Part shown: positions 2,460 through 45,074 of the stretch, one piece after another
Layout of the letters: every line of letters begins with the position of its first letter
Position numbering within the stretch: position 1 is the first letter of the stretch
NCBI GenBank assembly: GCA_963708025.1
Contig: CAVPSB010000013.1
Coordinates: 480,001-544,000 of the forward strand
DNA: 64,000 nucleotides
Direction: 5' to 3'
Source of the DNA: an uncultured Candidatus Rokubacteria bacterium
GTDB lineage: Bacteria; Methylomirabilota; Methylomirabilia; Rokubacteriales; DASRDR01
The notes under the pieces: generated by a model
Databases searched by the model: none
What the model was told of the DNA's origin: nothing
Seen by the model: only the letters and a program-made list of their open reading frames with translations
Position numbers and translations under genes: made by a program

Positions 2460-4032
2460 CTACTCCTCGAACCAGACGCCCCACAGGCGCGGGATCCGGT
2501 ACGGCTTGAAGCCCTTGACCTGGGACCGCGTCGCCTGGACCTTGGTCAGGTCGCCGAACTTGATGGCGTGGACCTGCTCGTAGAGCCGGGCCTGGGCGCG
2601 GGCGAAGGCCGCCTTGCGCTCCTCCAGGGTCGGCTTGCTCAGCATGTCCTCGTACGCCTGGACGAACACCGGGTCCCCCGGGGTGTACTGGAGCGCCGTC
2701 GGCGGGATCAGGTCGAGGATGGCGCCGGACGCGCCGACGGCTGGCCCGGTGCCGAAGCCGGTGAAGTAGATGTTCCACGGGTAGGTCTTGTCCTGCTGCT
2801 TCTTCCGCTGGGTCGGCCAGTCCGAGACCTCGATCTTCACGGTCATGCCGATCGCCTTCAGCTGCTCGCCCATCACCAGGGCCGCGTTGTACATGTTCTG
2901 GTAGTCGGTGTTGGTGATGAGGACCAGCTCCTCGCCCTTGTACCCGCCCTCCCGGAGGAGTCGCTTGGCCTGCTCCTTGTCGTTGACGTTGTAGCGCTCC
3001 TTGCCGGCGTCGGTGTAGTACGGGTTCCCGGGGTACTGGTACCCGGCCTGGAGCTTGTACGCCCCGTCGCTCGCCGCCTCCATGATCTCTTCCATGTTGA
3101 GGCCGACCTGGATCGCCCGCCGGACCAGGAGGTTGTCCGTCGGGGGCCGGGAGTGGTTGGGGATGGCGATGTGGATCCAGAACCGCTCGAGCGGGTAGAA
3201 CGTGATGCTCTTGTTGCCCTGGAGCCGCTGGGCCGCCTTGGTCGGCACGTCCTCGACGGCCTGGAACTCGCCCTTCTCGAGGCCGGCCACGCGGGCCCCG
3301 CCCTCCGTCACGATCCGGAAGGTGACGGTGTTGAACCAGGCGAGCTTCCGCCCGCCGAACCCCGTCCGGTCCGGGTAGGCCTCGTTGACCTTGTACCGGT
3401 CGAAGCGCTTCAGCTTGACGTGGGAGTCGGGCACCCACTCGACGAACTGGAAGGGGCCGGTCCCGATGTAGGGCTCCGTCTTCCCGGCCGGCCTTGGCGG
3501 TCTCCTCCGCGGGCATGATGACGATCGGGACGCGGAAGGACGACAGCTCCTCGATGAACGTCGGGACCGCCTTCTTGAGCTTGAGCTGGAAGGTGTACTT
3601 GTCGGGCGCCGTCATCGAGGCGACCAGCTCCAGCATCTTCCGGTCGACGCCGACCTTCTGGTAGCGCTCGAACGAGGCCAGCACGTCGGCCGAGGTCATC
3701 TCCTTGCCGTTGTGGAACAGCACGCCCTTGCGCAGGGGGAAGGTGTAGGTCAGGTTGTCCGGGCTCGTGGTCCAGCGCTCGGCCAGCTCGGCGATCGGCG
3801 CGTTCGACTCGTCCCGCGTCAGCAGGCACTCGTACATGTGCATGGCCACGTTGCGGGTCGCGATCGCCGACGAGAAGTGCATGTCGAGGTTGGGGACCTG
3901 CGCCTCCTGGGCGAAGACCATGTCCCCGCCGCGCTTCGGCGCCGCCTCCCCCGGGCCGGCGAAGCCCAAGGCCATGACGGCCACACCCACCAGGCCGAGC
4001 GATCCGATCCGCACGAGTCGCGCGATGTTCAT
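2460..4032 (-). CDS. Peptide ABC transporter substrate-binding protein (family 5), frameshifted near 3485
   Basis: Signal peptide, RGGDMVFA, LAERWTTSPDNLTYTFPLRKGVLFHNG in one frame; PYIGTGPFQFVEWVPDSHVKL...RLWGVWFEE in another. Confidence 0.92.
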
Positions 4033-4100
4033 CGTGTGTCCTCCTCAGGCGTTTTCAACGGCCGGTCCAGCCTACTCCCGACCGCCCCGACGCCGCAAGC

Positions 4101-4769: not shown

Positions 4770-5618
4770 TCAGCCCTTGAGGGCGCCGCCGGTCAGGCCC
4801 TCCACGAAATGCCGCTGCATGGCGACGTAAACTGCCACGATCGGGGCGATGGCGAGCGCCAGCGTGGCGAACATCCGCGGGAAGTCGGCCTGGAACTCAT
4901 CGATGATGAACACCTGCAGGCCGAGCGGCAGGGTTCTCAGCCGCGGATCCTGGATGAAGACCAGCGCGAGGAAAAACTCGTTCCAGGCCAGCACAAAGGT
5001 GAAGATGGCGACGACCGCCAGCACCGGTCGCGACAGCGGCAGCACGATACGGACGAACGCCTCGTAACGACGGCAGCCATCCACTCGCGCGGCATCCATC
5101 AACTCCTGGGGAAGGGCGTCGAAGGCGCTCCGCAGGAGCAGGATGGCGAGAGGCAGGCTGCTGGCGCAATACGGGAGGATCAGGCCGAGATAATTGTTGA
5201 CGAGACCGAGACGGATGACGATGACGTAGAGGGGCAAGACGTAGACCTGGATGGGAATGCTGATCATCGCCACGATGCTCAGGTACAGGACGCTGCCCCC
5301 GCGAAAGCGGAAGGCGCTGAAGCCATAGGCGGCAGCGCTGGCGAGCGCCAGCGTGAGTAGCACCGTTGCCGCGGAGACCAGGGCGCTGTTCAGCATCAGC
5401 CGGCCGAGGCGCGCGGCCCCCCAGGCCGAAAGGTAGTTGGCGAGGAGCAGCCGCTTGGGAAACCCCAGCGGATCGATGGCGAACTCTCCCTGGGTCTTCA
5501 GCGAGTCGGTGACCAGGACCCAGAACGGGTAGAGCACGGCCAGCGAGGCGACTCCGAGCCCAGCGTAGCAGAGGAGAAGCGCGCCCCTCGGCAGCCGGCC
5601 GAACGGCGGCGCACTCAT
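4770..5618 (-). CDS. Carbohydrate ABC transporter permease (MalG-like)
   Basis: ELMDAARVDGC, IVLPLSRP, AWNEFFLAL, QRHFVEGLTGGALKG. Confidence 0.92.
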   Translation of the reverse strand: MSAPPFGRLPRGALLLCYAGLGVASLAVLYPFWVLVTDSLKTQGEFAIDPLGFPKRLLLANYLSAWGAARLGRLMLNSALVSAATVLLTLALASAAAYGFSAFRFRGGSVLYLSIVAMISIPIQVYVLPLYVIVIRLGLVNNYLGLILPYCASSLPLAILLLRSAFDALPQELMDAARVDGCRRYEAFVRIVLPLSRPVLAVVAIFTFVLAWNEFFLALVFIQDPRLRTLPLGLQVFIIDEFQADFPRMFATLALAIAPIVAVYVAMQRHFVEGLTGGALKG

Positions 5619-5746
5619 GCGGCGGCCCCCCGGTGGCGCGACCAGCCCATGATCGCTGCCGCGATCACGGTGACGATGGCGAGCATCACCACCGACTGGG
5701 CGGCGGCGTAGCCGAGCCGATTGTAGAAGAAGGCCTGTTGGTACGA
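5615..5746 (-). pseudogene. C-terminal remnant of a carbohydrate ABC permease (MalF-like)
   Basis: YQQAFFYNRLGYAAAQSVVMLAIVTVI is the typical last helix of MalF-type permeases; its TGA overlaps the next ATG; no permease-like sequence upstream. Confidence 0.75.
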
Positions 5747-5947
5747 TCCCGTGAAAGCGCGTCGCGAAGCAAGGCGGGGCCGGCCGGCACCGTCGAGATC
5801 CGGGCTCGGCCCGTGGCGCATGATACATGCGATCCGAGGAAGTTGTCCACGCGCCGACACCCACGGTAACCGTGATCGCTAAATCGGGCTGGCCGCATGC
5901 GCTAGAAGCGGGTACGCGATCCGGCGCGTGTCAAGCGTCGGCCAGCG

Positions 5948-6014
5948 TCCGAGCGGCGGCTTTGCCGCCGCAATCGAAGGAGGCCTCCGGGGGGGGTCTT
6001 CCGAGACCCCCCGA
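5948..6014. repeat. Two-hairpin intergenic repeat, family A copy 2
   Basis: GCGGCGGC-TTT-GCCGCCGC followed by GGGGGGGTCT-TCCG-AGACCCCCC. Confidence 0.85.
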
Positions 6015-6019
6015 AGGAC

Positions 6020-8467
6020 CTAGAAGGTCTTCAGGAACTCGATCAGCGCCCGCTTGTCGTCGTCGCCGAGGCCCGGCTCCTCCTTGAAGGCGTCGGTGCC
6101 GAAGTAGTGGCCGCGGTTGACGACGAAATCGGGGCACTTGTTGAGCTCGAGGAGCGGGTCGACCAGGCCGGCCAGGATCTTCCGGGCCTCCTCGTCGCTC
6201 GCGTCCCTGGGCAGCGCCTTCAGGGCGTGCTTGACCTTGAGCAGGAGATCGACGACCTTCTTCTTCTGCGCGATCCGTTCGGTGGGGCTCGTGCTTTCCG
6301 ACAGCAGGTTGACGTTGGCCAGGAGGTTGACCGGCGTGCCGGCCGGGATGGGGCCGATCACGAGACCTTCCTTCTGGAACAGCCACGGCGCGATGCGGGT
6401 CAGCGGGCCCAGCAGCTGCCGCAGGTCGTCGCGCAGGTAGCCGGTCGGCACCCGCAGGAAGCTCCGGCTCGTCGTCCGGTCGATGACGCCCGGCACCTTG
6501 TCGCCGAGCACCGTGTCCTTCTCCCGCCGCTCGGGCCACAGGAGCTGCTCGATCGAGTCCTGGAACGAGCGCATCCGCGCCTCGACCGACGGCCTCGGAT
6601 CGAACCGTCCGAGGGCGTTGTTCAGGAAGAACGGCGCCGTGGACCACACGCTGATCAGCGAGGCCGGACGCGTGTAGCCCCGGCCGCCGGCCGGCATGAC
6701 GTACGGCCGCGGCTCGCCCGTGCCGGGGTGGTGGACGGTGATCGTCCCCACCGACGGGAGGTCCTTGTAGGACCGGGAGGAGAAATTGTCCCAGATGTCG
6801 CCGCCGATCGCGTTGGTCGCCAGCGGGCTGCAGGCGTTGGTCTCCAAGAGCGTCACCGGCACGCGGAGGTCCGTGGACAGGAAGTTCCCTTCCAGGAAGT
6901 CGTCGGCCAGGACGATCTCCCGCATCCTCGCCTTGAACTCGTCGGTCTTCGTCCAGCTCCAGTAGCGGCTCCAGCACTCGAGGTAACCGGCGCCCCCGCA
7001 GCCGCCCGGGTCGATGCCGACCGCCGGCGCCGGGGCCTTGCTCGAGTGGCAGCGAGCGCAGCGCTCGGCGAAGACTTCCTTGCCGCGGGTGAGCCGGGCC
7101 GCGTCCGCCGTCAGGTACGCCTGCCCGCCCGGCGCGTCCTTCAGCTTGTGCGGCGACGTGCTCTTCAGGAAGAAGAGGGCCATGCCGGGCGTCTGGGCCT
7201 CGGTGGCCTCCCAGTAGCTCGAGTTCTTCCGCGCGATCGCGATCTCGATCGGCGTGGTGGGCTTGCCGCCGATCAGGGCGTTGAAGTGCAGCAGCCACTC
7301 CTCGCTGAAGAGCCCGATGTTGAGGTAGACCCGGTTGAGGGCCCCCAGGGCGCCCACCGAGTCGGCGCCGTCCTTGAGCACGCGAGGCGTCAACACGCTG
7401 GCCGGGGGCTGGAAGAACTGGGTGAGCGGACCCGAGGCGACGTAGTCGTTGAACTGCTTGTTGTTCAGGCTGCCGCCCCCCAGGGTCTCCTGGCCCCAGC
7501 GCTGGGCCAGCGCCAGCCGCGGGCCCAGGCTGTACACGGCGTTCATGGTGCGGGGGTTGTTGATGTTGTCGGTGGAGACCAGGGACGTGTCGAGGGCGCC
7601 CGGCCGCGACGTGTGGAAGAGCTGGAACACGAAGCTCGTCTCGTCGGCCTCCCAGGCGAAGATGCGGTCGATCCAGAAGTACTGGGCGCCGACGTTCGAG
7701 CTGAGGTTCTCCCACGCCGGCCGCTCGGGGTCGGCGGGGGGCTTGATCGGGTTCGGCCCCACGTGGCAGAAGCCGCAGGACATGCCGACCCGGTACGGCT
7801 TCACCAGGTCCTTGTCGAGGTAGTAGTCCTTGTCCTCGTAGTACTTCTTCGCGTCCCACTTGCGGGCCGCCTCGGCGTCGAACGCCGGGTTCGGGAAGAG
7901 CCGCAGGCCGACGATCCCGGTGGCGTAGCCGTAGTAGGAGCCGAGCGGGACCGTCTTGCCCCGGGCGCCGACGGCGACGCCGGGATACTTCTGCTCGTTC
8001 TCGAAGGGATCCGGAGGGCAGTCGGCGCGGCGCCGATCGAGCCACAGGCCGAACCGCTGGGGGTCGGGGCCGGTGGCCTTCTCGAAGCACGGCTCGTTGA
8101 CCAGGCCGAGGTAGTACCACCGGCTGTCCCGGCTGTACTTGAGGCTCGGGTGGGAGGAGAGCGTCTTCAGGAAGTCGAGGGCGCCGAAGCTGGACTCCGA
8201 GATCCGGTCCCAGAAGCGGTCGTTCCCCCCGGTCCAGACGATCCAGGTGTTGCGACCCTTGACCTCCTCGCCGGCGAGGGTCACGCCGCCGTCCATGTCG
8301 CGGAAGTAGTCCTCGTCCGCCGCCGGGAACGACGCGGGGACCCGGCCGACGCGGCGGGCCTCGTCGAGGACCTCGCCCGGGCGGCCCTGGTCGGTGCCGC
8401 AGCTCACCAGGGCCATCGCACAGAGCGACATCACGGTGATGATCCGGCGCGAGCCGTTCCACGTCAT
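6020..8467 (-). CDS. Large di-haem c-type cytochrome lipoprotein (distantly RoxA/bCcP-MauG-like), function unknown
   Basis: 815 aa; lipobox-like LVSC; CGFCH (7763-7777) and CARCH (7046-7060); SLISVWSTAPFFLNN resembles the W.TAPY.HNG motif. Confidence 0.8.
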   Translation of the reverse strand: MTWNGSRRIITVMSLCAMALVSCGTDQGRPGEVLDEARRVGRVPASFPAADEDYFRDMDGGVTLAGEEVKGRNTWIVWTGGNDRFWDRISESSFGALDFLKTLSSHPSLKYSRDSRWYYLGLVNEPCFEKATGPDPQRFGLWLDRRRADCPPDPFENEQKYPGVAVGARGKTVPLGSYYGYATGIVGLRLFPNPAFDAEAARKWDAKKYYEDKDYYLDKDLVKPYRVGMSCGFCHVGPNPIKPPADPERPAWENLSSNVGAQYFWIDRIFAWEADETSFVFQLFHTSRPGALDTSLVSTDNINNPRTMNAVYSLGPRLALAQRWGQETLGGGSLNNKQFNDYVASGPLTQFFQPPASVLTPRVLKDGADSVGALGALNRVYLNIGLFSEEWLLHFNALIGGKPTTPIEIAIARKNSSYWEATEAQTPGMALFFLKSTSPHKLKDAPGGQAYLTADAARLTRGKEVFAERCARCHSSKAPAPAVGIDPGGCGGAGYLECWSRYWSWTKTDEFKARMREIVLADDFLEGNFLSTDLRVPVTLLETNACSPLATNAIGGDIWDNFSSRSYKDLPSVGTITVHHPGTGEPRPYVMPAGGRGYTRPASLISVWSTAPFFLNNALGRFDPRPSVEARMRSFQDSIEQLLWPERREKDTVLGDKVPGVIDRTTSRSFLRVPTGYLRDDLRQLLGPLTRIAPWLFQKEGLVIGPIPAGTPVNLLANVNLLSESTSPTERIAQKKKVVDLLLKVKHALKALPRDASDEEARKILAGLVDPLLELNKCPDFVVNRGHYFGTDAFKEEPGLGDDDKRALIEFLKTF

Positions 8468-8613
8468 CGCTGATTCCCCTCCTGCCGCTCGCTGGAATCC
8501 GTGACGAGCGGGGTCGCGCCAGAATGTGTCTCCCTCGTGCCGCGAGTCAAGTGTGTAACGCGGTCGGACCGCGGTGTATCCAAACGGATACGGCGAGGTG
8601 TCTCAGCCGAGAA

Positions 8614-8651
8614 CATCGGGGGGTCTCGGAAGACACCCGAGATCCCCGATG
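8614..8651. repeat. Family A hairpin, partial copy in opposite orientation
   Basis: CATCGGGGGGTCTCGGAAGACACCCGAG closely matches the reverse complement of 1362-1392; ends in CCCCGATG. Confidence 0.7.
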
Positions 8652-9056
8652 CTCTTAGCTAATTAGCAGTCCCGTCGCCCTCCTCTGGGGTACCCTGCAT
8701 CCAGTTCGTGTCCCACCCAGTAAGCTGATCCGCTCGTCGCGCCGGCCCTGGCTCCTGGTCTACGTAGGGCGCGGGGGAGGCGCGGGGCCCGGTCCACACG
8801 ACCATTCCCCTGCCCACGCCCCCTTGCGGCGTCCGCTCACGGTGGGCTACGCTCCGGTAACTCGGAGACGGCCCCCGGGGAAGGCGTCTGGGACTCGGGT
8901 GCGTCAGGCACGGCCCATGGAAGAGGAGCCGCCGGCGATGAACGAGGCGCTTTGGATCTCCTGCACTTCGCGGTCCCGGGGGCGCTGTGTGGCGATGCTT
9001 GTCAGTGTCGGTGTGAAGACCGATGCTCAAGACCGCAGCGGCGGGAGGAGGCAGAC

Positions 9057-9621
9057 ATGAAGATCCTCAGCAGGCGAATGCTCAGTTGGGTTCTGTTGGC
9101 AACGGCACTGGCGGTTTCCTCGGTCCTCGGCGCTTCACGGCCGGCGGGGCGGTGGAGGTAGGCGAGCCGGCGCCCGCCTTCACGCTGGCGAGCACCACTG
9201 GTGGCGATATCTCCCTCAGCGACTTTCGGGGCAAGAAGTGGGTGCTCCTCGAGTTCTACGGCGCCGACTTCGCTCCGACGTGAGCGGCGAACCTGTCGGC
9301 CAGGAAGGCCGACTACAAGCGCTTCGAAGACCTGGGGATCCAGAACCTCGCCGTCAGCGCCAACATGACCTTCTCGCAGCAGACGTTCGCCGAATCGCTG
9401 AAGCTGCCGTTCCCGCTGCTCAGCGACTTCCCCGACCGGAAGGTCATGCGCAGCTACGGGGTCCTCAACGAGAAGATCGATGATCGCGAACAGGTCATTC
9501 TTTCTCATCGATCCGCAGGGCATCATCCGCAAGAAGTGGATCATCGAGAACGGCGGCGACGACGGTCGTCTATAGCGACACCCTCCTGCGGGATATCCGA
9601 GAGGTGATCGGCAAGCGCTGA
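9057..9621 (+). CDS. Exported peroxiredoxin-like (AhpC/TSA, redoxin) protein, probable selenoprotein (UGA at 9281-9283); three apparent 1-bp frameshifts (~9150, ~9479, ~9556)
   Basis: GGAGGAGG RBS; signal peptide; VGEPAPAFTL...SLSDFRGKKWVLLEFYGADFAPT-UGA-AANL...FPLLSD...RSFFLIDPQGIIR; frame stays open and homologous after the UGA. Confidence 0.85.
9295..9313 (+). promoter_or_regulatory. Candidate bacterial SECIS element
   Basis: Perfect 7-bp stem GTCGGCC/GGCCGAC with loop AGGAA; loop starts 18 nt after the UGA and has G at position 2. Confidence 0.72.
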
Positions 9622-9623
9622 CC

Positions 9624-10245
9624 ATGACGCCGAGCCGTCCCGGCGGCGATGGAGCATGGTCGCCCGCCTGGCTCGCCGCCCGGGCAGGGCTGCTCGCGTT
9701 CGGCCTGCTCGTCGTCGCCGTCCTGGCCGGTGCCGCCAGCGCCGACCAGCCGGCGCTGGCATCTCTTCTCAAGACCCTCGACCTCCGTGGCTATACCTCC
9801 CGCACGGCGCCTCCCCCGTTCAGTGGCAGCACGCTCGACGCCCGGCAACTGTCACTGACGGAGCTACCGGGGAACGGTCATCGTTCTGAACTTCTGGGCG
9901 AGCTGGTGTCTCGAGTGTCGCTCAGAGATGCCCGTGCTGGAGCGGCTCCAGCGCGAGTTCTCGTCGCGGGGACTCGCCATCATCGGGGTCAATGCCCGTG
10001 AGAACAAGGAGGCCGTCGGGCGCTACGCCAAGGAGCTGGGCCTGACGTTCCCACTCGTGCTCGATCCGGACGGCAAGATCAATGCCCTGTACGGTGTCAT
10101 CGGGCTTCCGACGACGTTCGTCGTCGGCCGGGATGGACGCGCCATCGCCTTGGCCATCGGACCTCGCGAGTGGGAGAGTGCGCCGGCCCGCGCGCTCATC
10201 GAGGCGCTGCTGGCCGAGCCGGCCCCAGGTCCGGCCGCCCAGTGA
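9624..10245 (+). CDS. TlpA/ResA-family disulfide reductase, frameshift near 9870
   Basis: N-terminal hydrophobic anchor; VIVLNFWASWCLECRSEMP; GLPTTFVVGRDG; GPREW. Confidence 0.9.
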
Positions 10246-11228
10246 CGGCAGGCCGCGGCGTTCTGCTGGTGCTCGGAATCGTGCTCACGATCGCAGGGCC
10301 GATGGCTCGCGCGACCGAAGCGCAATCGCCTCGCCTGGTCAAGATCGGAGCGCTGACGGAGTCATGGGGACCCACGCCGGCCATCGTCGGCCTCCGCGAC
10401 GGTCTTCAGGAGCTTGGATACCGCGAGAACCAGGACTTCGTGATCGGAGTGCGCTTCACACAGGGCAACGTCGCCGAGCTGCCCGAGGCCGCCCGCGCCC
10501 TCGTCCGCCACGGGGTGGATCTCATTGTCACCAGTGGCGGAGACATGCGGCGAAGGCCGCCCAGATGGCGACGACGCGGATCCCGATCGTCTTCATGGGC
10601 GGAAGCGACCCGGTAGAGGCAGGACTGGTGAAGAGCTTCGCGCGACCCGGCGGCAACATCACCGGGATCGCGGATCTCGAGTCGAGCTCGTGCCGAAGCG
10701 AATGGAGATCTTTCGCGAGCTCGTCCCGGGCCTGAAACGCAGTTCTCTTGGTCTACGACGCGACGAACGCCGTCGCTGTCTCGAGACTGGCAGGTGCACC
10801 GCGACGCCGCGCACCGCCTCGGCCTCACGCTCGTCGAACGACCGGTGCGGACAGAAGATGAGGCTCGATCCGTGATCAGCGCGGTCAGGAAGGGCGAGGT
10901 GGACGGAATCTTCTCGCCCCGCTCGCTGTCGCTCAATATCCCGGGCTTGATTCTCGAGATCGCACCCAAGCGGGCGATTCCGACCATGTTCGACGACGCG
11001 TTCTTCGTGGAGCAGGCCGGGCTGGCGAGCTATGCCGCGAACCTCTACGGGCTGGGCCGCCAGGCCGCGCGCCTGGTGGACAAGATCCTCAAGGGCGCGA
11101 AGCCGGGTGATGTCCCGGTCGAGCAGCCGACGAAGTTCGAGCTGGTGATCAATCTGAAGGCCGCCAAGGCGCTCGGCATCACGATTCCTCAATCCATACT
11201 GCTGCGGGCGGACCGGGTCATCGAATGA
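10242..11228 (+). CDS. Stand-alone ABC substrate-binding protein (ABC_sub_bind type), several frameshifts
   Basis: GLQELGYREN, TTRIPIVF..SDPVEAGLVKSFARPGGNITG, ILKGAKPGDVPVEQPTKFELVINLKAAKALGITIPQSILLRADRVIE. Confidence 0.88.
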
Positions 11229-11237
11229 TCGGGCGCG

Positions 11238-11996
11238 TCAGCCGCGGCCGATGAAGGGCATCTTGGTCGCCATCACCGTCATGAACTGGACGTTCGCATC
11301 GAGGGGCAGGCTGGCCATGTAGAGCACGGCGCTGGCGACGTGGGCCACGTCCATCAGCGGCTCGATCGCGACGGTGCCGTTCGCCTGCGGCACGCCCGAC
11401 GCCATGCGGGCGGCCAGGTCGGTCAGGGCGTTGCCGATGTCGATCTGGCTGCAGGCGATGTCGTACTTCCGCCCGTCCAGCGAGGTGGACCTGGTGAGCC
11501 CCGTGATCGCGTGCTTGGTCGAGGTGTAGGGCGCCGAGTTGGGCCGGGGCACGTGAGCCGAGATGGAGCCGTTGTTGATGATCCGCCCGCCGCGCGGGTC
11601 CTGGCTCTTCATGAGCTTGAACGCCTCCTGCGTGCACAGGAAAGAGCCGGTCAGGTTGGTGTCCACCACCGCCTTCCACTGCGCGTAGGTGAGATCCTCC
11701 AGCGGGACCCCCGGCGCGCCGATCCCGGCGTTGTTGAACAGGAGGTCGAGGCGGCCGAACGCCTCCTTCGTTCGCGCGAACAGGCCCTGGATGGACTGGT
11801 GATCGGCCACGTCGGTGGGGATGGCCAGCGCCTGGGCGCCCGCCGGCCCGGCCTCGGCCACCGCCTGCTCCAGCCGATCCTTGCGCCGGCCGGCCAGGGC
11901 CACCCGATACCCCTCCTTCAGCAGCGCGACCGCGACCGCCTTGCCGATGCCGCTGCCCGCACCCGTGACGATGGCGACCTTGCTCGACGATGTCAT
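11238..11996 (-). CDS. SDR family oxidoreductase
   Basis: [17 protein letters not shown] catalytic motif. Confidence 0.95.
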
Positions 11997-12056
11997 GCGT
12001 AGTCTCCTCGGTTGGTCCGGTTGAGTGGCCGCCCCATGGCGGCGGGATGAGCCTCC

Positions 12057-13325
12057 TCAGCTTCCTGCCCCCGGTGCCCGACCCGCGCGGCCTGGCCAGT
12101 CGAGGACGAACCGGGTCCAGTCCCTGGCGACGACGATCTCGTCGGCGGCCGCCCGGTAGTCGGCCTCGATAGGATACGCCAGGATCCGAAGGCCCTCGGT
12201 GCCCGGGCGGCCGGCGACGTCCCAGGCCCTGATCTCGTCGAGGAGGTGCCGGGCCAGCGCCGCGCTCTCGCCGAACACGCGAAGGAAGAGATCGAACGCC
12301 GGCGGGACGCACACCCGCTCGACTGGCGGCGCCTCGCCCGGGGGACGCATCAGGAAGGCGGCGCCGTGCTCCTCGAACAGGCCGGCCGAGCTCACGTACT
12401 GTCCGGCCAGCGCGAAGAGATGGGGCACGGGGTTGGCTCCCGCGCCCGACCCCTGCATCTCGAACCAGCAGAAGCGCCCGTCGTGGAGCGCCACCCACGG
12501 GACCAGCCCGCCGTACACCTCGCGGGGCGTCACCCGCACGTCCGCCGGGATGTCCCCGTGCGGTCCGGTCAGCAGCGCGTGGGCCGCCCCGGCATCGACC
12601 TCGGCGGGGTCCCGGACCCAGAGGTTGAGCCCGGGACCGGGCCCGAGCGGCACGCGCCGGTCCGGCGCCGCGAACGCCCCGCGGAGCGTCATGAACACAC
12701 ACTCCTTCACCGAGAGGCTCGCCAGGTGACCGGCGCGACGCTCGAACGCCACCGACTTCTGGGAGCCGCCGATCGCCAGCGGCAGGACGAGGCGCCCCCC
12801 GGGCTCGAGCTGCTCGCGCCAGGCAGGCGCCACGTCCCAGGCGGCCACGGTGAGAATGATGCGATCGTACGGCGCGGCCTCCGGGTATCCGAAGCCGCCA
12901 TCCGCGCACACGACGCGCACGCGCTCGAACCCGGCCGCCGCCAGATGGGCCCGGGCCCCGTTGACGATGTCCTGGTCGAGGTCGAGGGCGGTGACCTCCC
13001 CGGTGTCCCCGACGATGTGGGCCATGAGCGCGGCATTGTAGCCGGTGCCGGCCCCGACCTCCAGCACCCGGTGGCCCGGCTCCAGGCCGAGCTGGTCGAG
13101 CATGACCGCCATGATCTGCGGCTGCGAGGACGAGCTGACCACCTCGCCATCCACCTTCTTCGTCACGATCCACCGGTCACGGTAGACCTCCTCGGGCGCC
13201 ACGTCCGGGAGAAACAGGTGACGTGGCACGTCGCGAAACGCCTGCTCGATGGCCGGCGAGCGCAGGTGGCCGCCGCGCGCGAGCTCGTCGACGAGAGCCT
13301 GGCGGAGCGCCGATGGGTCGGTCAC
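12057..13325 (-). CDS. Protein-L-isoaspartate O-methyltransferase-like protein with long C-terminal extension (FxLD-system methyltransferase-like)
   Basis: AFRDVPRHLF, SSSSQP, VLEVGAGTGYNAALMA, APYDRIILT, QLEPGGRLVLP, plus about 200 extra residues. Confidence 0.85.
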   Translation of the reverse strand: MTDPSALRQALVDELARGGHLRSPAIEQAFRDVPRHLFLPDVAPEEVYRDRWIVTKKVDGEVVSSSSQPQIMAVMLDQLGLEPGHRVLEVGAGTGYNAALMAHIVGDTGEVTALDLDQDIVNGARAHLAAAGFERVRVVCADGGFGYPEAAPYDRIILTVAAWDVAPAWREQLEPGGRLVLPLAIGGSQKSVAFERRAGHLASLSVKECVFMTLRGAFAAPDRRVPLGPGPGLNLWVRDPAEVDAGAAHALLTGPHGDIPADVRVTPREVYGGLVPWVALHDGRFCWFEMQGSGAGANPVPHLFALAGQYVSSAGLFEEHGAAFLMRPPGEAPPVERVCVPPAFDLFLRVFGESAALARHLLDEIRAWDVAGRPGTEGLRILAYPIEADYRAAADEIVVARDWTRFVLDWPGRAGRAPGAGS

Positions 13326-13358
13326 GGTGGGCTGGCGGTGGCAGGAGCGCCGCGCCGA

Positions 13359-14504
13359 CTACGCCCGCATCGAGCGGCGGCCTTGCTCGTCCAGGACCTG
13401 GTCCAGCACCCAGTTGTTGACCCGGTGCACCGCGGGCTCCCGGAGGGCAAACGGGCCGGGCCGACGGAGGGTCGAGGCGAGCCCGGCCTGCTGGGCCTCG
13501 CAGATCGCGTTGTCTTCCCCGATGCCGGTCTCCCAGCGGTGGAAGTACTTCTTGACGCCCGACTCGAAGTCGGGCCGCGCGACCGTCGTGGCGGGGAAGC
13601 AGAACCCGACCCCGAGCCGCGAGCGCGTGGGACCGAGCGGGAGGACCCGCAGCCACCACATGCAGTCCTGGGTGCAGGCGAACTGGGTGGCGGGGTGGAG
13701 CACCGTGAAGTACGTCCCGTGGGCAGGCCGGCCGGCGAGGCCGGGCACGTGGGGAAACGGCGCGGCCTCGGCGGGCAGGACCGCGATGCTCGTCTCCTGC
13801 GGGATGTAGAGCGCGTCCCAGTGCCCCCGGCTTTCCTCCTGCACCGCGTGCTGCTGGCCCAGGCTGGCGTGGTGCACGGTCCCGGTGTGGTACTCCTCCA
13901 TCGCGTTCTCGACCAGGAGCTTCCAGTTGCAGGCGACCTCGTAGTCGATGCGCCGCACGCAGACCATCCGGTCGAAGGCGTAGCACCCAAGCTTGTCGGT
14001 GAGGTCGCCCAGGTGCTCGACCAGCCCCGGCGCCGCCGGATCGAAGCTCACGAAGACGAAGCCCTGCCACGACTCGCAGCGCACGGGCGTGAGCCCCCAG
14101 CCGGCGGGGTCGAATCCCGGACGATCGCGCATCCCCGGGGCGCCCAGCAGGCGGCCGTCCGGCGCGTAGGTCCAGCCATGGTACGGGCACACGATGGTCC
14201 GACAGCGGCCGCGGCCGTCGAGGAGCCGGGCGCCCCGGTGCCGGCAGGTGTTGGCGAACGCGCCGACCCGGCCCGCGGCGTCGCGCAGCAGGACGAGCGG
14301 GCCCGGCACCGTGTCGACGGTGAGGTAGTCGCCGGGCTCCGGCACCTCGTCGACGCGCCCCACGAAGTGCCAGCCGGGCGTGAAGAGGCGCTCCACCTCG
14401 CGTGCGTGGAACTCGGGGCTCGTGTAGCACCAGGCGGGCAGCGTCTCCGCCTCGCCCACCGGACGCCGCACGCCGCGGTAGTGCGCCGGATCGAAGATGT
14501 CCAC
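13359..14504 (-). CDS. Rieske non-haem iron oxygenase alpha subunit (choline monooxygenase-like)
   Basis: CRHRG...CPYHGW Rieske motif; NWKLLVENAMEEYHTGTVH and EDNAICE iron ligands; CAGGAGG RBS before GTG at 14504. Confidence 0.93.
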   Translation of the reverse strand: MDIFDPAHYRGVRRPVGEAETLPAWCYTSPEFHAREVERLFTPGWHFVGRVDEVPEPGDYLTVDTVPGPLVLLRDAAGRVGAFANTCRHRGARLLDGRGRCRTIVCPYHGWTYAPDGRLLGAPGMRDRPGFDPAGWGLTPVRCESWQGFVFVSFDPAAPGLVEHLGDLTDKLGCYAFDRMVCVRRIDYEVACNWKLLVENAMEEYHTGTVHHASLGQQHAVQEESRGHWDALYIPQETSIAVLPAEAAPFPHVPGLAGRPAHGTYFTVLHPATQFACTQDCMWWLRVLPLGPTRSRLGVGFCFPATTVARPDFESGVKKYFHRWETGIGEDNAICEAQQAGLASTLRRPGPFALREPAVHRVNNWVLDQVLDEQGRRSMRA

Positions 14505-14648
14505 GGGAGGATGCCTCCTGCCGCTGGTGGCCTCGGGCCGCGGATCGAGAGCCTGAATCGCACGGCACCGGCGACGATCGCTCTCCGGGAGCCTAGCCCG
14601 CGCTCGAATGGCTGTCAATCGAGGGGCTCCGCTCATCGCCCGATCCGG

Positions 14649-14684
14649 GCCTCTCGTCCGATTTTCCCGCCTTTCGTCCCTTTC
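14649..14684 (+). promoter_or_regulatory. Imperfect direct repeat (20-bp period), candidate LytTR operator
   Basis: GCCTCTCGTCCGATTT (14649-14664) and GCCTTTCGTCCCTTTC (14669-14684), upstream of an operon ending in LytS/LytTR. Confidence 0.55.
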
Positions 14685-14756
14685 CTCGCGTCGTTCCCGG
14701 CCCGCGTCGCTATCGTGATCCCCGTGACGATCATGACCCGAGGAAAGGAGAGCGCC

Positions 14757-15511
14757 ATGCACCACTCCACTCGAACCGCTCTCACGACCGGGCTCCTCGC
14801 CCTGCTGGTCGTGGCCCCCGACGTCCTCGCCCAGCCGCCCGCGGCCCCGGAGCCCGCGGTCGCGCCGGCGGCGAGGGCACAGCCCGCTTCGACTACCTCG
14901 TGCGCGCGGACTTCTTCGCCGGGATGCGGGGCGACCGGGCGCGGCTCGAGCGCGCCATGCAGCTCTGCGACGAGACGCTCGCCCGCGAGCCCCGGCATGC
15001 CGAGGCGATGGTCTGGTACGGCTCGGGGCTGCTGGTCCTCGCCGGCCAGTCGTTCCGGAGCGGCGACGCCGCCAAGGGCGGCGAGCTGTGGGAGCGCGGC
15101 CTCCGGATGATGGCGGACGCCGTCGCCCTCGCCCCGGACCGGGTGGGCGTGCTCATCCCGCGCGGGGCCACGCTGCTCCTGGCCGCGCGCCAGCTCCCGC
15201 CGGGCGCCGAGAGCCGGGCGCTGCTCCAGACCGGCGTCACCGACTACGAGAAGGCGCTGGCGCTCCAGACCCCGTACTTCGAGCGGCTCTCGCTCCACGC
15301 CCGGGGGGAGCTCCTGGCCGGGCTGGCCGAGGGCTGGCACCAGCTGGGCCGGGACGAGACGGCGCGCGCCTACCTCGAGCGGATGGTCACGGAGCTGGAC
15401 GGCTCGGGCTACCAGGCGCGGGCGAAGGCGTGGCTCGAGACGGGGCCCCCGCTCGGAGGCTTCGCCTGCGCCAGCTGTCATCGGAGCGGTGGCCATGGCC
15501 CGTCGAACTGA
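14757..15511 (+). CDS. Exported TPR-like helical protein with C-terminal haem c motif (CASCH), frameshift near 14883
   Basis: AAGGAG RBS; signal peptide ending VLA-Q; amphipathic helical repeats; CxxCH at 15467-15481, 9 residues before the stop. Confidence 0.75.
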
Positions 15512-20757: not shown

Positions 20758-21682
20758 TCACGTGTGGGCATACAGCTCCGTGCTCAGGTACTTCATCCCA
20801 GAATCGACGGCCACGGTGACCACCGTGTGGTCGGGCCCCAGGCGCTCGGCGACCCGCAACGCCACCGCCACGTTTGCTCCCGTGGAGGTGCCGGCGAAGA
20901 TTCCCTCGAGCCGGGCCAGGCGCCGGGCGGTCGCCATCGCTTCCTGAGTCGATACCGTCTGGATCTCGTCGGCGAGTGTTCCGGTCCAGAGCGGCACCAC
21001 GAACCCGGCGCCGGTGCCCTCGATCCTGTGAGACCCGCTCGGCTTGCCCGACAGCACCGCCGACTCCTCGGGCTCGACCGCAACGACGTACACCGCCTCG
21101 TTGTGGGCTCGAAGGCGTGTCGAGATCCCCCGCAACGACCCGCAACTACCGACGCATCTGGACGAAAGCGTCAACCCGCCCGTGGGCCTGCTCCCAGATC
21201 TCCTCGCCCATCCGCTCGTAGCTGGACAGCTGATCGGTATTGTTCAGCTGATCCGTCCAGTAGCACCCGGGGGCGGAGGCGAGCTGTCTGGCGGTCTCGA
21301 TCATCTCGAGCGTGAGGGCCTTCGTCGTCCCCCCGGTGGGACTGGCGACGAGTGTGAGCCGAGCCCCCAGCGCCGCCATGTGGGCCCGCTTCTCCTGGCT
21401 GAACGCCTCCGATGTCACGATCTGCAGCGGGATGCGCTTCGCGGCGCACACGAAGGCGAGTGACACGCCCGTGCTTCCACCCGTGTACTCGATCACCGAG
21501 CCGCCCGGACGCAGCCGCCCATCCGCCTCGGCCGCCTCGACCATCGCGAGCGCCATGCGGTCCTTCATGCTCCCCGTCGGGTTTTCGTACTCCAGCTTGA
21601 CCAGGATCCTGGCGCTCTTCTCCGGGACCATGTGCTGGAGCGGCATGAGCCTCGTCCGGCCAATGGTATCGAGCACGTTCAC
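20758..21682 (-). CDS. PLP-dependent cysteine synthase family protein, frameshift near 21158
   Basis: IGRTRL, VKLEYENPTGSMKDR (PLP lysine), HRIEGTGAG, LEGIFAGTSTGAN, DSGMKYLS. Confidence 0.9.
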
Positions 21683-21753
21683 GCTTGCTCTTCCTTTCTA
21701 CGAGGTTCACTGACTCTGGCTCAGTTTGACTGCAAGGTCCCATGGCAATCTCT

Positions 21754-22649: not shown

Positions 22650-22705
22650 CGTTCCGCCTCCGGCAGTCTAACGTTCGGGGCTCGTCTGGCTCCGGGGGGG
22701 CGCAC

Positions 22706-24309: not shown

Positions 24310-24544
24310 GGGTCTCCCCCTTTCGGTCAGCGGGCCTGGCGCATTATCCACGGGGCGCGCCCCTACCGTCAACGCGCGCCGATCCGGCCGAGGGCCCCGT
24401 CGAGATTTGCCCGTAAGGGCAATGCCGGCCCCGGCCGGCGGCCGCCTTGTGAGACTCTTTCCGCTTGACAGGGGGCCGGCTCGTCGAGCCTGGCCACACC
24501 CGTCGGTCGCCACCCGCCCAGGACGTGTCAGAGAGGAGGCCGCC

Positions 24545-41411: not shown

Positions 41412-41693
41412 ATGGAGCCCTACCGCCTCCGGGTGCCAGGACGGATCGAGGAACTTGTCCGGACCCTTCATCCCGAGCTCAAGCGCAAAGTGCGGGCAGG
41501 CCTCGACCTCATTCGCACCGACCCGGAGGTCGGCAAGGAGCTACGCGATGAGCTGGCGGGACTGCGGAGCCTCCGGGTCGGACGGTTCCGAATCGTCTAC
41601 CGGGTCGCGCCGAGACGGCTGATCGATCTCGTCGCCATCGGCCCGCGCCGGACCATCTACCAGGAGACGCTTCGACTACTCCGGCGAGCGTGA
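41412..41693 (+). CDS. RelE/ParE family toxin
   Basis: GKELRDELAGLRSLRVGRFRIVY..LVAIGPRRTIY. Confidence 0.92.
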   Translation: MEPYRLRVPGRIEELVRTLHPELKRKVRAGLDLIRTDPEVGKELRDELAGLRSLRVGRFRIVYRVAPRRLIDLVAIGPRRTIYQETLRLLRRA

Positions 41694-41708
41694 AGGTGGG
41701 CCCCGCGG

Positions 41709-44700: not shown

Positions 44701-45074
44701 ATCCGCTCGAGCACCGGGTCGAGGAGCTTCCGCGCCTCCTCGGGGTCCCGGTCGGCGAGCAGCTCCATCGAGCCCTTGAGGTCGGCGAAGAGGACGGTCA
44801 CCTGCTTCCGCTCGCCCTCGAGGGCGGCCTTGGAGGTGAGGATCTTCTCGGCGAGGTGCTTGGGGGTGTACGACCCCGGTGAGGCGAAGGCGGGAGAATC
44901 TTGAAGGGCCGGTGCAGGAGCCTCGACCACGCGCGCGCCGCACTTGCCGCAGAAGGCGAACCCCTCGGGGTTGACGAAGCCGCACGAGGGACACAGGGAG
45001 GCCAGCCTGGCTCCGCAGCGCCCGCAGAACGCCATCGCGGGAGGATTCTCGAAGGCGCACTGCGGACAGGTCAC
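41709..45074 (-). CDS. Double zinc ribbon + class III nucleotide cyclase + AAA/STAND ATPase + TPR protein (copy 2), frameshifts near 43695 and 41815; 3' end approximate
   Basis: Four CxxC; VTVLFADLKGS, MGDGIMALFG, GEPGVGKS, FEDLHWID, FKHALTHEVAY, helical repeats. Confidence 0.92.

What the first reader, a model, noticed from the sequence alone, without database searches (positions are those of the whole stretch)
9057..9621. Hidden exported selenoprotein: peroxiredoxin-like gene with UGA at the catalytic position and a SECIS-like hairpin
Seen: the ORF track breaks this gene at TGA 9281-9283, but the frame continues with AhpC/TSA-like sequence (FPLLSD, RSFFLID). The UGA sits in FYGADFAPT-U, where peroxiredoxins have FYPxDFTPV-C. 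A perfect GTCGGCC-AGGAA-GGCCGAC hairpin has its loop 18 nt downstream. The reconstructed protein has a signal peptide and no cysteine at all, so without recoding it has no redox residue. Established: bacterial Sec insertion needs a hairpin just 3' of the UGA, typically with a G early in the apical loop. Inference: an exported 1-Sec peroxiredoxin-like enzyme whose conserved Pro and Thr (PxxxTxxC) are replaced by Gly and Ala, which may mean altered chemistry.
Basis: partly seen in the sequence, partly recalled or inferred. Interest (0 to 1): 0.85.

Follow-up and report, generated by a model that had tools for sequence, protein, structure and literature searches.

The report
Exported selenocysteine peroxiredoxin-like gene, confirmed
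This is a real gene for an exported peroxiredoxin-like enzyme that uses selenocysteine (encoded by UGA) as its only redox residue; enzymes of this kind are already known, but this family has an unusual active site and public annotation cuts it short.

Summary
An AhpC/TSA-family gene (9057-9621, +) has an in-frame TGA (9281-9283) at the peroxidatic-Cys position. A perfect 7-bp hairpin (9295-9313, loop AGGAA) starts 11 nt after it.

The genome, whose relatives' records are titled Rokubacteria/Methylomirabilota, has selA, selB, tRNA-Sec and selD.

- **UGA is conserved.** 55 of 57 homologous genes in 42 of 251 genomes of the phylum keep it, as do 47 of 54 distinct metagenome copies.
- **The hairpin behaves as a SECIS.** It meets the published bacterial SECIS rules and has the lowest synonymous variation in the gene. 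Three of its 7 pairs show compensatory changes. All 47 TGA copies keep 6-7 pairs. Seven TGC (Cys) copies encoding the same peptide keep only 4-7 (median 5).
- **The three frameshifts are most likely assembly indels.** Orthologues are intact, and a heuristic finds about 1000 frameshift-like junctions across this genome against 0 in relatives' loci.
- **The family is distinctive.** It has a signal peptide, no conserved Cys and the catalytic Arg, but lacks the canonical Pro and mostly the Thr. In 31 of 36 loci a TlpA/ResA-like CxxC gene follows it.

Sec-peroxiredoxins and envelope Prx-TlpA pathways are both known, so this is a new variant. Peroxidase activity is inferred, not shown.

The parts
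9043..9051 (+). Shine-Dalgarno-like GGGAGGAGG, 5 nt before the ATG
   Evidence: read directly
9057..9621 (+). Sec-peroxiredoxin-like gene (AhpC/TSA family). It spans 565 bases across three frames because of three single-base indels; intact orthologues encode about 187 aa
   Evidence: frames; indels; intact orthologues; PF00578, 98 bits against a cut-off of 26
9057..9149 (+). N-terminal signal peptide (basic n-region, hydrophobic core, small-x-Ala site just before the mature ...VEVGEPAP start)
   Evidence: hydrophobic core in 46 of 46 homologues, Ala at -1 in 44 of 46. Judged on features only; no signal-peptide predictor was run
9146..9149 (+). G-run where one base is missing relative to orthologues (first frameshift)
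   Evidence: alignment column 106; (the orthologue in L070 reads ...SRPAGAVEVG... through this site)
9281..9283 (+). UGA selenocysteine codon at the peroxidatic position (FYGADFAPT-U)
   Evidence: aligned to the Cys of 5enu and 3drn; 55 of 57 homologous genes have one TGA; 47 of 54 distinct metagenome copies have TGA, 7 have TGC
9295..9313 (+). Bacterial SECIS hairpin: 7-bp stem GTCGGCC/GGCCGAC, loop AGGAA, 18 nt between UGA and the loop
   Evidence: 94.4% of cells paired, 3 of 7 pairs with compensatory changes; lowest synonymous diversity of 105 windows; stem kept in TGA forms, relaxed in TGC forms
9477..9477 (+). Approximate site of one extra base (second frameshift)
   Evidence: alignment column 439
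9492..9494 (+). Codon of the conserved catalytic-type Arg (R of ...ANRSFFLID...)
   Evidence: invariant R148 in 33 sequences; Arg motif in 41 of 46; the 5 exceptions are truncated, frameshifted or a variant that still has R
9554..9558 (+). Approximate site of one extra base (third frameshift)
   Evidence: alignment column 516, table 4 (relatives' contigs in 4 of 4 runs leave out one base at 9557)
9619..9621 (+). True stop codon (TGA with no hairpin behind it in the gene)
   Evidence: orthologues end at the same place
9624..10245 (+). Downstream TlpA/ResA-like thiol:disulfide oxidoreductase (CxxC in orthologues), the likely reductant. It also carries a frameshift near 9864-9870 in this assembly
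   Evidence: AhpC-TSA, Redoxin and Thioredoxin_8 on 9859-10242; ResA and TlpA models, below their cut-offs; present downstream in 31 of 36 loci; one base left out at 9864 in relatives' contigs

Best explanation
The locus encodes an exported, single-selenocysteine, peroxiredoxin-fold enzyme of the AhpC/TSA family, closest to the BCP/PrxQ and AhpE types.

The UGA at 9281-9283 is decoded as selenocysteine by the genome's own SelA/SelB/tRNA-Sec/SelD machinery. Decoding is directed by the 7-bp hairpin that starts 11 nt downstream, which acts as a bacterial SECIS.

The three frameshifts in this copy are consensus errors of an indel-rich assembly. The real gene is an intact reading frame of about 187 codons, as in its orthologues.

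Inferred mechanism:
1. The protein crosses the membrane with a cleavable signal peptide.
2. Its selenolate, helped by the conserved Arg, reduces a peroxide and becomes a selenenic acid.
3. No resolving Cys is present, so the enzyme is regenerated through a selenenylsulfide with the CxxC protein encoded immediately downstream, a TlpA/ResA-like thioredoxin.
4. That protein would in turn be reduced by a CcdA/DsbD-type membrane electron transporter.

Shown: gene family, fold, Sec coding, SECIS constraint, the gene pair and the presence of the machinery. Inferred: export, peroxidase activity, the redox relay, and that the indels are artefacts.
For: **Sec machinery**
- tRNA-SeC lies at C32:206334-206431, next to selA (597.8 bits, cut-off 267.9) and selB (371.9 bits, cut-off 242.25).
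- selD scores 398.4 bits (cut-off 125) and has its own in-frame TGA.

**Family and fold**
- PF00578 scores 98 bits against a cut-off of 26.
- The U position aligns with the peroxidatic Cys of 5enu and 3drn.
- An AlphaFold model of the G035 orthologue has pLDDT 88.9. Its best Foldseek matches are all peroxiredoxins (3hjp Bcp4; AhpE 1xxu, TM 0.91).

**UGA conservation**
- 42 of 251 genomes of the phylum have a homologue at E <= 1e-28, and 55 of the 57 matches have exactly one TGA.
- 9 of 9 orthologous loci inspected are single open frames apart from that TGA.
- 47 of 54 distinct metagenome copies have TGA and 7 have TGC.
- Of the 44 full-length public proteins among the 120 best listed, 27 have Cys at that position.

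**SECIS**
- The hairpin meets the published constraints (loop 3-9 nt, stem 4-16 bp, G in the first two loop positions, 16-37 nt from UGA, MFE <= -7.5; passage of PMC13188914 read). It has a 5-nt loop AGGAA, a 7-bp stem and 18-nt spacing. The whole 50-nt stretch folds at -20 kcal/mol; the MFE of the hairpin alone was not computed for the window.
- On 47 sequences, 94.4% of cells are paired, 3 of 7 pairs carry changes on both sides (6 cells), and 0 of 500 shuffles reach that.
- Synonymous diversity at the seven hairpin codons is 0.043. This is the lowest of 105 seven-codon windows, whose mean is 0.225.
- All 47 TGA copies keep 6-7 of 7 pairs. The 7 TGC copies encode the same peptide (AANLSARKAD) but keep 7, 6, 5, 5, 5, 4 and 4 pairs (Fisher p = 6.6e-6).
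- Three further Cys forms lack the hairpin.

**Indels as artefacts**
- Orthologues have none.
- At least 7 genes among the 31 ORF pieces scanned in this window are split between frames by Pfam coordinates.
- A frame-tracking heuristic finds 11 frameshift-like junctions in the window and 1013 in the genome (0.152 per coding kb). It finds 0 in 41.6 kb of coding sequence from four relatives' loci.
- Relatives' contigs in 4 of 4 sequencing runs omit the extra base at 9557.

**Redox partner**
- A TlpA/ResA-like FWA[ST]WCxxC gene lies within 900 nt downstream in 31 of 36 loci with enough flank.
- DsbD_TM family genes occur at two places in the genome.

**Active site**
- U, Pro -2 and Arg are invariant in 33 sequences.
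- 42 of 46 homologues have no Cys in the mature part. Three of the 4 exceptions lie in frameshifted tails.
Against: - **No source reads.** No run holding the source sample was served (best share of words 0.26). The indels could not be checked against this organism's own reads and could be real in this strain. Six or more indels within 9057-11228 is denser than the genome average from my heuristic.
- **Non-canonical active site.** The canonical peroxiredoxin Pro (-7) is never present (0 of 46). Thr or Ser at -3 occurs in only 10 of 46, so efficient peroxidase chemistry is not guaranteed.
- **Cys forms also lack Pro and Thr.** They carry A or V at -3 in 9 of 27, and H in G070 and G072. 'Sec compensates for the lost Thr' is therefore not a clean rule.
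- **Weak covariation among close orthologues.** There were 0 double changes among the first 20 sequences.
- **Non-independent Cys copies.** The seven TGC copies form one FSPAC clade, so the Fisher test overstates independence.
- **Missing tests.** Export was inferred from sequence features only. No expression or selenium-incorporation data exist, and Rfam has no matching family.
Confidence: 0.85

Rival explanations
1. The gene family is a genuine selenoprotein family, but this particular copy is a recently decayed pseudogene. On this reading the three frameshifts, and those in the two genes downstream, are real mutations in this strain.
For: There are three indels in 565 bases, plus at least one in the TlpA-like gene and at least two in the ABC_sub_bind gene, all within 9057-11228. 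That is denser than the heuristic genome average of 0.152 per coding kb. No reads of the source organism were available.
Against: Frameshift-like junctions occur on nearly all contigs (1013 in total) and 0 were found in relatives' loci. That pattern points to an assembly property. Other few-contig genomes in the set show their own, different frameshifts in the same gene (L104 of G020, L064 of G143, L068 of G158, L098). Apart from the indels, the window copy keeps a perfect 7/7 SECIS stem, the TGA, the Arg codon and 81-94% protein identity to the nearest orthologues.
Confidence: 0.08
2. The protein is a real exported selenoprotein of peroxiredoxin fold but not a peroxidase. Having lost the Pro and Thr of the PxxxTxxC site, it would act as a selenol/thiol-disulfide oxidoreductase or a sulfenic-acid or other oxidant reductase in the envelope. 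It would work with the TlpA-like protein, for instance in protein repair or in maturation of metal or cytochrome centres.
For: Pro -7 is absent in 46 of 46 homologues, and Thr or Ser at -3 is present in only 10 of 46. No NCBIfam peroxiredoxin model reaches its cut-off; the best is PrxU at 77 bits against 270. ResA and TlpA-type proteins also score against the sequence. In Caulobacter, a PrxL protein lacking the conserved Prx residues had no detectable peroxidase activity (heading and passage of PMC3322552 read).
Against: The Prx-specific Arg is invariant. The redox residue sits at the peroxidatic position, not in a CxxC. The best structural matches are all peroxiredoxins, including the 1-Cys AhpE. 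Selenocysteine's recognised higher nucleophilicity could offset loss of the activating Thr; this last point is established chemistry and was not tested here.
Confidence: 0.25
3. The TGA is not recoded. It would instead be a true stop separating two short ORFs, a base-call error for TGC/TGT, or a sign of a genetic code that reads TGA as Trp or Gly.
For: Public gene calls treat it all three ways. Many clusters are 107-111 aa C-terminal fragments. Fifteen full-length calls read W and one reads G at that position.
Against: The same gene and its orthologues end in TGA, so TGA is an ordinary stop in this lineage. The W calls also run on past the normal stop, which is what a wrongly applied code would produce. 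TGA recurs at this one codon in 55 of 57 genomic copies and 47 of 54 metagenomic copies from many assemblies. The N-terminal piece alone would be a signal peptide plus half a thioredoxin fold. A full Sec machinery is present.
Confidence: 0.02

Closest known systems
Selenocysteine-containing peroxiredoxins (the 'Prx' selenoprotein family, PF00578, TxxU; prototype PrxU of Eubacterium acidaminophilum). Listed in PMC13188914 (passages read) and PMC1794560 (passages read)
   Same: Same Pfam family, and Sec at the peroxidatic position. It is decoded with a downstream hairpin, and Cys homologues exist.
   Different: The review describes a conserved PxxxTxxU motif. Here the motif is G-x-x-x-[A/V/S]-P-T-U. 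The PrxU equivalog model NF040737 scores 77 bits against a cut-off of 270. This family has a signal peptide and an adjacent TlpA-like gene.
Caulobacter crescentus envelope peroxide-reduction pathway ScsB -> TlpA -> PprX (PMC3322552; passages read)
   Same: An exported BCP/PrxQ-type peroxiredoxin with a signal sequence, reduced by a TlpA-type thioredoxin-like protein that depends on a DsbD-family membrane electron transporter.
   Different: PprX is a Cys enzyme with the full Pro/Thr/Cys/Arg set and a resolving Cys. Here the redox residue is Sec, Pro and Thr are gone, and there is no resolving Cys. The two genes are also adjacent. ScsB itself was not searched for; only DsbD_TM-family genes were found.
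Mycobacterium tuberculosis AhpE, a 1-Cys peroxiredoxin (PDB 1xxu, 1xvw)
   Same: Best structural superposition (TM 0.91 normalised by the target, rmsd 1.5 over 151 columns). The sequence search against solved structures gives E about 4e-10. It uses a single redox residue and an external reductant.
   Different: AhpE is cytoplasmic, Cys-based and has a canonical active site. The canonical site is recalled from memory and was not tested here.

Membership tests
Bacterial selenoprotein gene (UGA-Sec decoding) | In-frame UGA aligned with Cys in homologues | tested here: met
   Aligned to the Cys of 5enu and 3drn. Cys forms: L057, G070 and G072; 7 TGC metagenome copies; 27 of the 44 full-length public proteins.
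Bacterial selenoprotein gene (UGA-Sec decoding) | bSECIS hairpin just 3' of UGA (loop 3-9 nt, stem 4-16 bp, G in the first two loop positions, 16-37 nt from UGA, MFE <= -7.5; rules as quoted from PMC13188914) | tested here: met
   Loop AGGAA, 7-bp stem and 18-nt spacing; the 50-nt fold is -20 kcal/mol; the hairpin-only MFE of the window copy was not computed. Covariation and synonymous constraint. Relaxation in Cys forms.
Bacterial selenoprotein gene (UGA-Sec decoding) | selA, selB, selC and selD in the genome | tested here: met
   the three protein families score above their curated cut-offs, and ARAGORN calls the tRNA-SeC.
Bacterial selenoprotein gene (UGA-Sec decoding) | Selenium actually incorporated at the site | not testable with these tools
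   Needs 75Se labelling or mass spectrometry.
Peroxiredoxin (AhpC/TSA, PF00578) | Profile score above the gathering threshold, and a thioredoxin/Prx fold | tested here: met
   98 bits against 26. AlphaFold model pLDDT 88.9, with top Foldseek hits all Prx.
Peroxiredoxin (AhpC/TSA, PF00578) | Peroxidatic Cys/Sec and conserved catalytic Arg | tested here: met
   U78 and R148 are invariant in 33 sequences. The Arg motif occurs in 41 of 46; the exceptions are truncated, frameshifted or a variant that keeps R.
Peroxiredoxin (AhpC/TSA, PF00578) | Pro at -7 of PxxxTxxC | tested here: not met
   Position -7 is G 38, V 4, A 2, L 1 and S 1 of 46, and never P. This position was not constrained by my selection pattern.
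Peroxiredoxin (AhpC/TSA, PF00578) | Thr/Ser at -3 of PxxxTxxC | tested here: not met
   The window has Ala. In the family the counts are A 20, V 12, S 8, G 3, T 2 and F 1 of 46. My pattern allowed only F, W, Y, L, A, V, S, T or G at -3. Copies it missed have H or N.
Peroxiredoxin (AhpC/TSA, PF00578) | Thiol-dependent peroxidase activity | not testable with these tools
   Needs an enzyme assay.
PrxU equivalog (NCBIfam NF040737) | Score at or above the curated cut-off (270 bits) | tested here: not met
   77 bits for the full-length G035 orthologue and 62.6 bits for the window fragment.
Envelope TlpA-peroxiredoxin pathway (PprX type) | Export signal on the peroxiredoxin | tested here: inconclusive
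   Features fit, but no dedicated predictor was available and there is no experiment.
Envelope TlpA-peroxiredoxin pathway (PprX type) | TlpA-type CxxC partner and a DsbD-family membrane transporter | tested here: met
   Adjacent TlpA/ResA-like gene in 31 of 36 loci. DsbD_TM is above its cut-off at two loci in the genome. Physical interaction was not tested.
Envelope TlpA-peroxiredoxin pathway (PprX type) | Resolving Cys and the full PxxxTxxC site, as in PprX | tested here: not met
   42 of 46 have no Cys in the mature part. See also the Pro and Thr rows above.

The most novel reading that the evidence does not exclude
This may be a distinct, widespread soil and sediment clade of envelope selenoenzymes. 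In it, selenocysteine plus the Arg alone would form a minimal peroxiredoxin active site, so the otherwise 'absolutely conserved' Pro and Thr have become dispensable. The enzyme would be hard-wired to its own TlpA-like reductant, making a Sec-based periplasmic peroxide (or other oxidant) reduction relay not yet described. Public annotation misses it entirely, storing it as truncated ORFs or as Trp/Gly read-throughs.
Probability: 0.3. Interest if true: 0.6.

Novelty: new variant of a known kind. Interest (0 to 1): 0.42.

Why it matters
- **Annotation.** A common gene of soil and sediment Methylomirabilota is systematically mis-annotated. The metagenome scan confirmed 419 relatives. Sec forms are stored as 107-111 aa fragments or as W/G read-throughs, and no NCBIfam selenoprotein model captures the family.
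- **A natural experiment on SECIS function.** Sec and Cys copies encode the same peptide, yet only the Sec copies keep the hairpin.
- **Enzymology.** The family offers a test of whether selenocysteine lets a peroxiredoxin dispense with the Pro and Thr of its catalytic site.
- **Physiology.** It would extend the envelope TlpA-peroxiredoxin pathway to a selenium-dependent form.
- **Method.** Indel-rich assemblies can make an intact selenoprotein gene look like a pseudogene.

Tried and rejected
- **Source reads.** No run with the source organism was served (best share of words 0.26). The four runs laid hold only short contigs of relatives that are mostly 90-99% alike. They cannot confirm or refute the window's own bases. 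Parts without cover say nothing.
- **Rfam.** Nothing relevant in 8900-10400 at E <= 10 (two chance-level hits). Rfam appears to hold no general bacterial SECIS model, so this is uninformative.
- **Promoter and terminator scan of 8400-11400.** 0 promoter-like sites. Two overlapping terminator-like sites lie inside the TlpA-like gene, which is within the chance expectation.
- **First covariation test.** On 20 close orthologues there were 0 double changes, no better than shuffles. Only the wider set of 47 gave signal.
- **Twin-arginine export.** The window and some orthologues have S-R-R, but others lack RR. I do not claim Tat export.
- **Earlier scan notes.** None for this genome on this topic.
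- **Literature.** Searches for Rokubacteria plus selenocysteine, selenoprotein plus groundwater plus Methylomirabilota and selenocysteine plus TlpA plus peroxiredoxin found no description of this family. The study cited as reference 66 in PMC13188914 (groundwater MAGs, a Methylomirabilota MAG with 63 predicted selenoproteins) is not in the library. Neither it nor its supplements could be checked, and it may already list these genes.
- **Complex prediction.** A Prx-TlpA complex prediction was not run, because transient redox pairs are poor candidates for that test.
Full report
**What is in the sequence**

The window is G000:C13:480001-544000, from an 8.17-Mb, 49-contig genome of about 71% G+C. 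On the + strand, an ATG at 9057 follows GGGAGGAGG (9043-9051).

Coding sequence then runs through three frames:
- The frame of 9057 gives a typical N-terminal export signal and stops.
- The frame of 9023 gives the AhpC/TSA core up to ...FYGADFAPT, then TGA 9281-9283, then continues to ...YGVLNEK.
- The first frame resumes with ...ANRSFFLIDPQGIIRKKW...
- The third frame ends the protein with ...VVYSDTLLRDIREVIGKR and TGA 9619-9621.

A DNA alignment with four intact orthologues places exactly three one-base indels in the window copy. One base is missing beside the G-run 9146-9149, one is extra near 9477 and one is extra near 9554-9558.

The hairpin GTCGGCC-AGGAA-GGCCGAC occupies 9295-9313, and 18 nt lie between the UGA and the loop.

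**Is the UGA a selenocysteine codon?**

The genome has the full machinery:
- ARAGORN finds a tRNA-SeC at C32:206334-206431.
- It lies next to selA (597.8 bits, cut-off 267.9) and selB (371.9 bits, cut-off 242.25).
- selD (398.4 bits, cut-off 125) carries its own in-frame TGA.

The 111-residue core scores 98 bits on PF00578 against a cut-off of 26. In alignments to solved BCP-type peroxiredoxins (5enu, 3drn) the UGA position falls on the peroxidatic Cys.

Conservation of the TGA:
- A six-frame search of 40 relatives plus the own genome found strong homologues. The orthologues with 81-89% identity all have exactly one TGA.
- 9 of 9 loci inspected are single open frames apart from that TGA.
- Across the phylum, 42 of 251 genomes have a match at E <= 1e-28. 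Of the 57 matches, 55 have one TGA and 2 have none (G070, G072). These tallies include the unpublished G113, which contributes 2 matches.
- Record titles of related public contigs name Candidatus Rokubacteria/Methylomirabilota, with a few bins labelled otherwise.
- In metagenome contigs, 419 stretches encode a relative. Of the 80 kept, 54 are distinct around the site, 47 with TGA and 7 with TGC.

**Is the hairpin a SECIS?**

It meets the published bacterial model: loop 3-9 nt, stem 4-16 bp, G within the first two loop positions, 16-37 nt from UGA, and MFE <= -7.5 kcal/mol (passage of PMC13188914 read). The loop, stem and spacing are read directly; the only energy computed for the window is the 50-nt fold below, not the hairpin alone.

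On its own the 50-nt fold is only moderately unusual: -20 kcal/mol, z = -2.51, and 4 of 200 shuffles fold as well.

Three comparative tests give the weight:
1. **Covariation.** With 20 close orthologues there were no double changes. The wider set had 47 sequences, 43 distinct, with L062 (unpublished) and the Cys form L057 left out. There, 94.4% of cells pair and 3 of 7 pairs carry changes on both sides, in 6 cells. The changes are G-C to C-G, C-G to U-A, and G-C to A-U and to U-A (one sequence each). None of 500 shuffles reaches this. These sequences are related, so the shuffle result is not a probability.
2. **Synonymous constraint.** Among 26 sequences alignable without gaps at 70% identity or more, the seven hairpin codons have a synonymous diversity of 0.043. 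That is rank 1 of 105 seven-codon windows, whose mean is 0.225.
3. **Sec forms against Cys forms.** All 47 TGA metagenome copies keep 6 or 7 of 7 stem pairs (32 keep all 7). The seven TGC copies encode the identical peptide AANLSARKAD but use other synonymous codons, and keep 7, 6, 5, 5, 5, 4 and 4 pairs. Fisher p for >= 6 pairs is 6.6e-6. The seven form one clade, so this overstates independence.

Three further Cys forms agree. L057 (TGT) has a broken 3' arm. G070 and G072 have no hairpin, whereas their TGA-bearing relative G097 has a different 5-bp hairpin at the same distance. The stem is therefore maintained only where UGA must be recoded.

**Are the frameshifts real?**

Orthologues have none.

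The window itself is full of genes split between frames. Pfam coordinates show this for seven genes among the 31 ORF pieces scanned:
- a PALP enzyme (20761-21697)
- two SBP_bac_5 proteins
- an ABC_sub_bind protein (10170-11225)
- the TlpA-like gene
- a TPR/cyclase protein (41660-46329)
- this gene

I wrote a GC3 frame-tracking heuristic. It counts same-strand frame switches that are not ended by a stop. It finds 11 in the window and 1013 in the genome (0.152 per coding kb, on nearly all contigs). It finds 0 in 41.6 kb of coding sequence from four relatives' loci.

Contigs of related populations in 4 of 4 public runs leave out one base at 9557. They show further indel differences at the neighbouring genes' shift sites (9864, 10544, 10681, 10740/1, 10792). 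Other few-contig genomes in the set carry their own, different frameshifts in this same gene.

I conclude that the indels are consensus errors, at about 0.9. The residual doubt is that the source reads were not available and that the local density is high, with at least 6 indels in 2.2 kb.

**What the protein is**

An AlphaFold model of the intact G035 orthologue (33-sequence alignment) has mean pLDDT 88.9. It shows an N-terminal helix followed by a thioredoxin/Prx fold. The best Foldseek matches are all peroxiredoxins, led by Bcp4 (3hjp), Prx1 entries and the 1-Cys AhpE (1xxu, TM 0.91, rmsd 1.5).

Invariant residues in the 33-sequence alignment include U78, Pro76, Phe74, Arg148 (the Prx catalytic-type Arg, codon 9492-9494 in the window) and the PLLSD motif.

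In 46 Sec forms:
- Position -7 is G 38, V 4, A 2, L 1 and S 1, and never Pro.
- Position -3 is A 20, V 12, S 8, G 3, T 2 and F 1.

My selection pattern fixed Pro at -2 and allowed only nine residues at -3. Copies it missed have H or N there.

Other family features:
- 42 of 46 have no Cys in the mature part. Three of the 4 exceptions lie in frameshifted tails.
- 46 of 46 have a hydrophobic core before the mature domain.
- 44 of 46 have Ala at -1 of the junction.

No NCBIfam model reaches its cut-off. The best is PrxU (NF040737) at 77 bits against 270.

**Context and likely mechanism**

Two bases after the stop begins a gene for a TlpA/ResA-like protein with an N-terminal hydrophobic segment. 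Orthologues carry an FWASWCxEC active site. Such a gene lies within 900 nt downstream in 31 of the 36 loci that have enough flank (35 Sec forms and one Cys form). The genome has two DsbD_TM-family genes above cut-off.

The closest described system is the Caulobacter ScsB-TlpA-PprX pathway. There an exported BCP/PrxQ peroxiredoxin is reduced by TlpA (PMC3322552, passages read).

I therefore propose this relay: cytoplasmic reductant, then a CcdA/DsbD-type transporter, then the TlpA-like CxxC protein, then the selenenylsulfide or selenenic acid form of the Sec enzyme, then peroxide. Only the gene pair and the presence of the components are shown. Activity, export and partner specificity are inferred.

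The main functional rival (about 0.25) is that loss of Pro and Thr marks a non-peroxidase redox role. Cys forms that also lack Pro and Thr weaken a simple 'Sec compensates' story. Of the 27 Cys forms, 17 have S at -3, 5 have A, 4 have V and 1 has Q. G070 and G072 have H.

**Comparison with what is known, and novelty**

Already in print:
- Sec-containing peroxiredoxins are an established selenoprotein family (TxxU, 'PxxxTxxU'; the table and text passages of PMC13188914 read, and tables of PMC1794560 read).
- A Methylomirabilota MAG with 63 predicted selenoproteins has been reported (PMC13188914 citing its reference 66). That study is not in the library, and neither it nor its supplements could be checked.

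My searches found no description of this clade, of a Sec enzyme paired with TlpA, or of Rokubacteria selenoproteins.

Public protein collections hold the Sec forms as 107-111 aa C-terminal fragments named 'hypothetical protein' or 'peroxiredoxin'. Others are full-length calls with W (15) or G (1) at the site, which also run past the true stop.

I rate this a new variant of a known kind. It is a real and well-supported selenoprotein, of moderate interest for its non-canonical active site and envelope pairing, and useful as an annotation correction.

Noticed in passing
whole window and genome G000 (for example 20761-21697, 2463-4038, 22671-24310, 10170-11228, 41660-46329): The assembly is rich in single-base indels. 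At least 7 genes among the 31 ORF pieces scanned in the window are split between frames by Pfam coordinates. A frame-tracking heuristic counts 11 junctions in the window and 1013 in the genome, against 0 in 41.6 kb of coding sequence from relatives' loci. Any ORF-based reading of this genome needs frameshift-aware calling.
   Followed up: partly
G000:C10:102162-102470 (+), C18:445962-446276 (-), C2:404047-404271 (+), C14:270929-271231 (-), C7:91381-92304 (+): Five more genes in the same genome have an in-frame TGA at a redox position: a BCP-like FYVLDWTPGU, an exported ...TGTU Prx-like protein, two UxxC AhpC/TSA-like proteins (UPFC, ULPC), and selD (GAGU). Five of the 11 own-genome matches to the query carry one TGA. 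In relatives, most Redoxin-like matches carry one TGA. The lineage looks selenoprotein-rich, in line with the Methylomirabilota report cited in PMC13188914.
   Followed up: partly
L050 (G039:C136) 10035-10349 and 10690-11016; also G240:C192, G149:C199, G158:C106: Several relatives carry two or three tandem Sec-peroxiredoxin paralogues (about 68% and 86% identical to the query), followed by the TlpA-like gene.
   Followed up: no
public proteins P0004, P0008, P0024, P0026, P0036-P0044, P0076: Some public gene calls read the Sec-TGA as Trp (15 of the 44 full-length hits) or Gly (1), and run on past the true TGA stop. This looks like short contigs called with genetic code 4 or 25.
   Followed up: partly
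window 11044-11231: Contigs from four soil and sediment runs pile up here at summed depths of 5,000-15,000, against tens to hundreds elsewhere. This is the C-terminal end of the ABC_sub_bind (PF04392) gene. That motif must be shared by very many genes or organisms in those samples.
   Followed up: no
window 6020-8467 (-): Divergently oriented intact 815-aa ORF with an N-terminal hydrophobic segment and a CxxCH haem-binding motif. Its only Pfam signal is a weak Cytochrome_CBB3 hit (E = 4.6e-4, below cut-off). It may be an exported haem protein of unknown family next to the redox gene pair.
   Followed up: no
L104 (G020:C59), L064 (G143:C25), L068 (G158:C106), L098 (G143:C34): Orthologues in some other genomes of the set carry their own frameshifts at different places in the same gene. 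This points to a shared sequencing-technology problem, not shared biology.
   Followed up: partly
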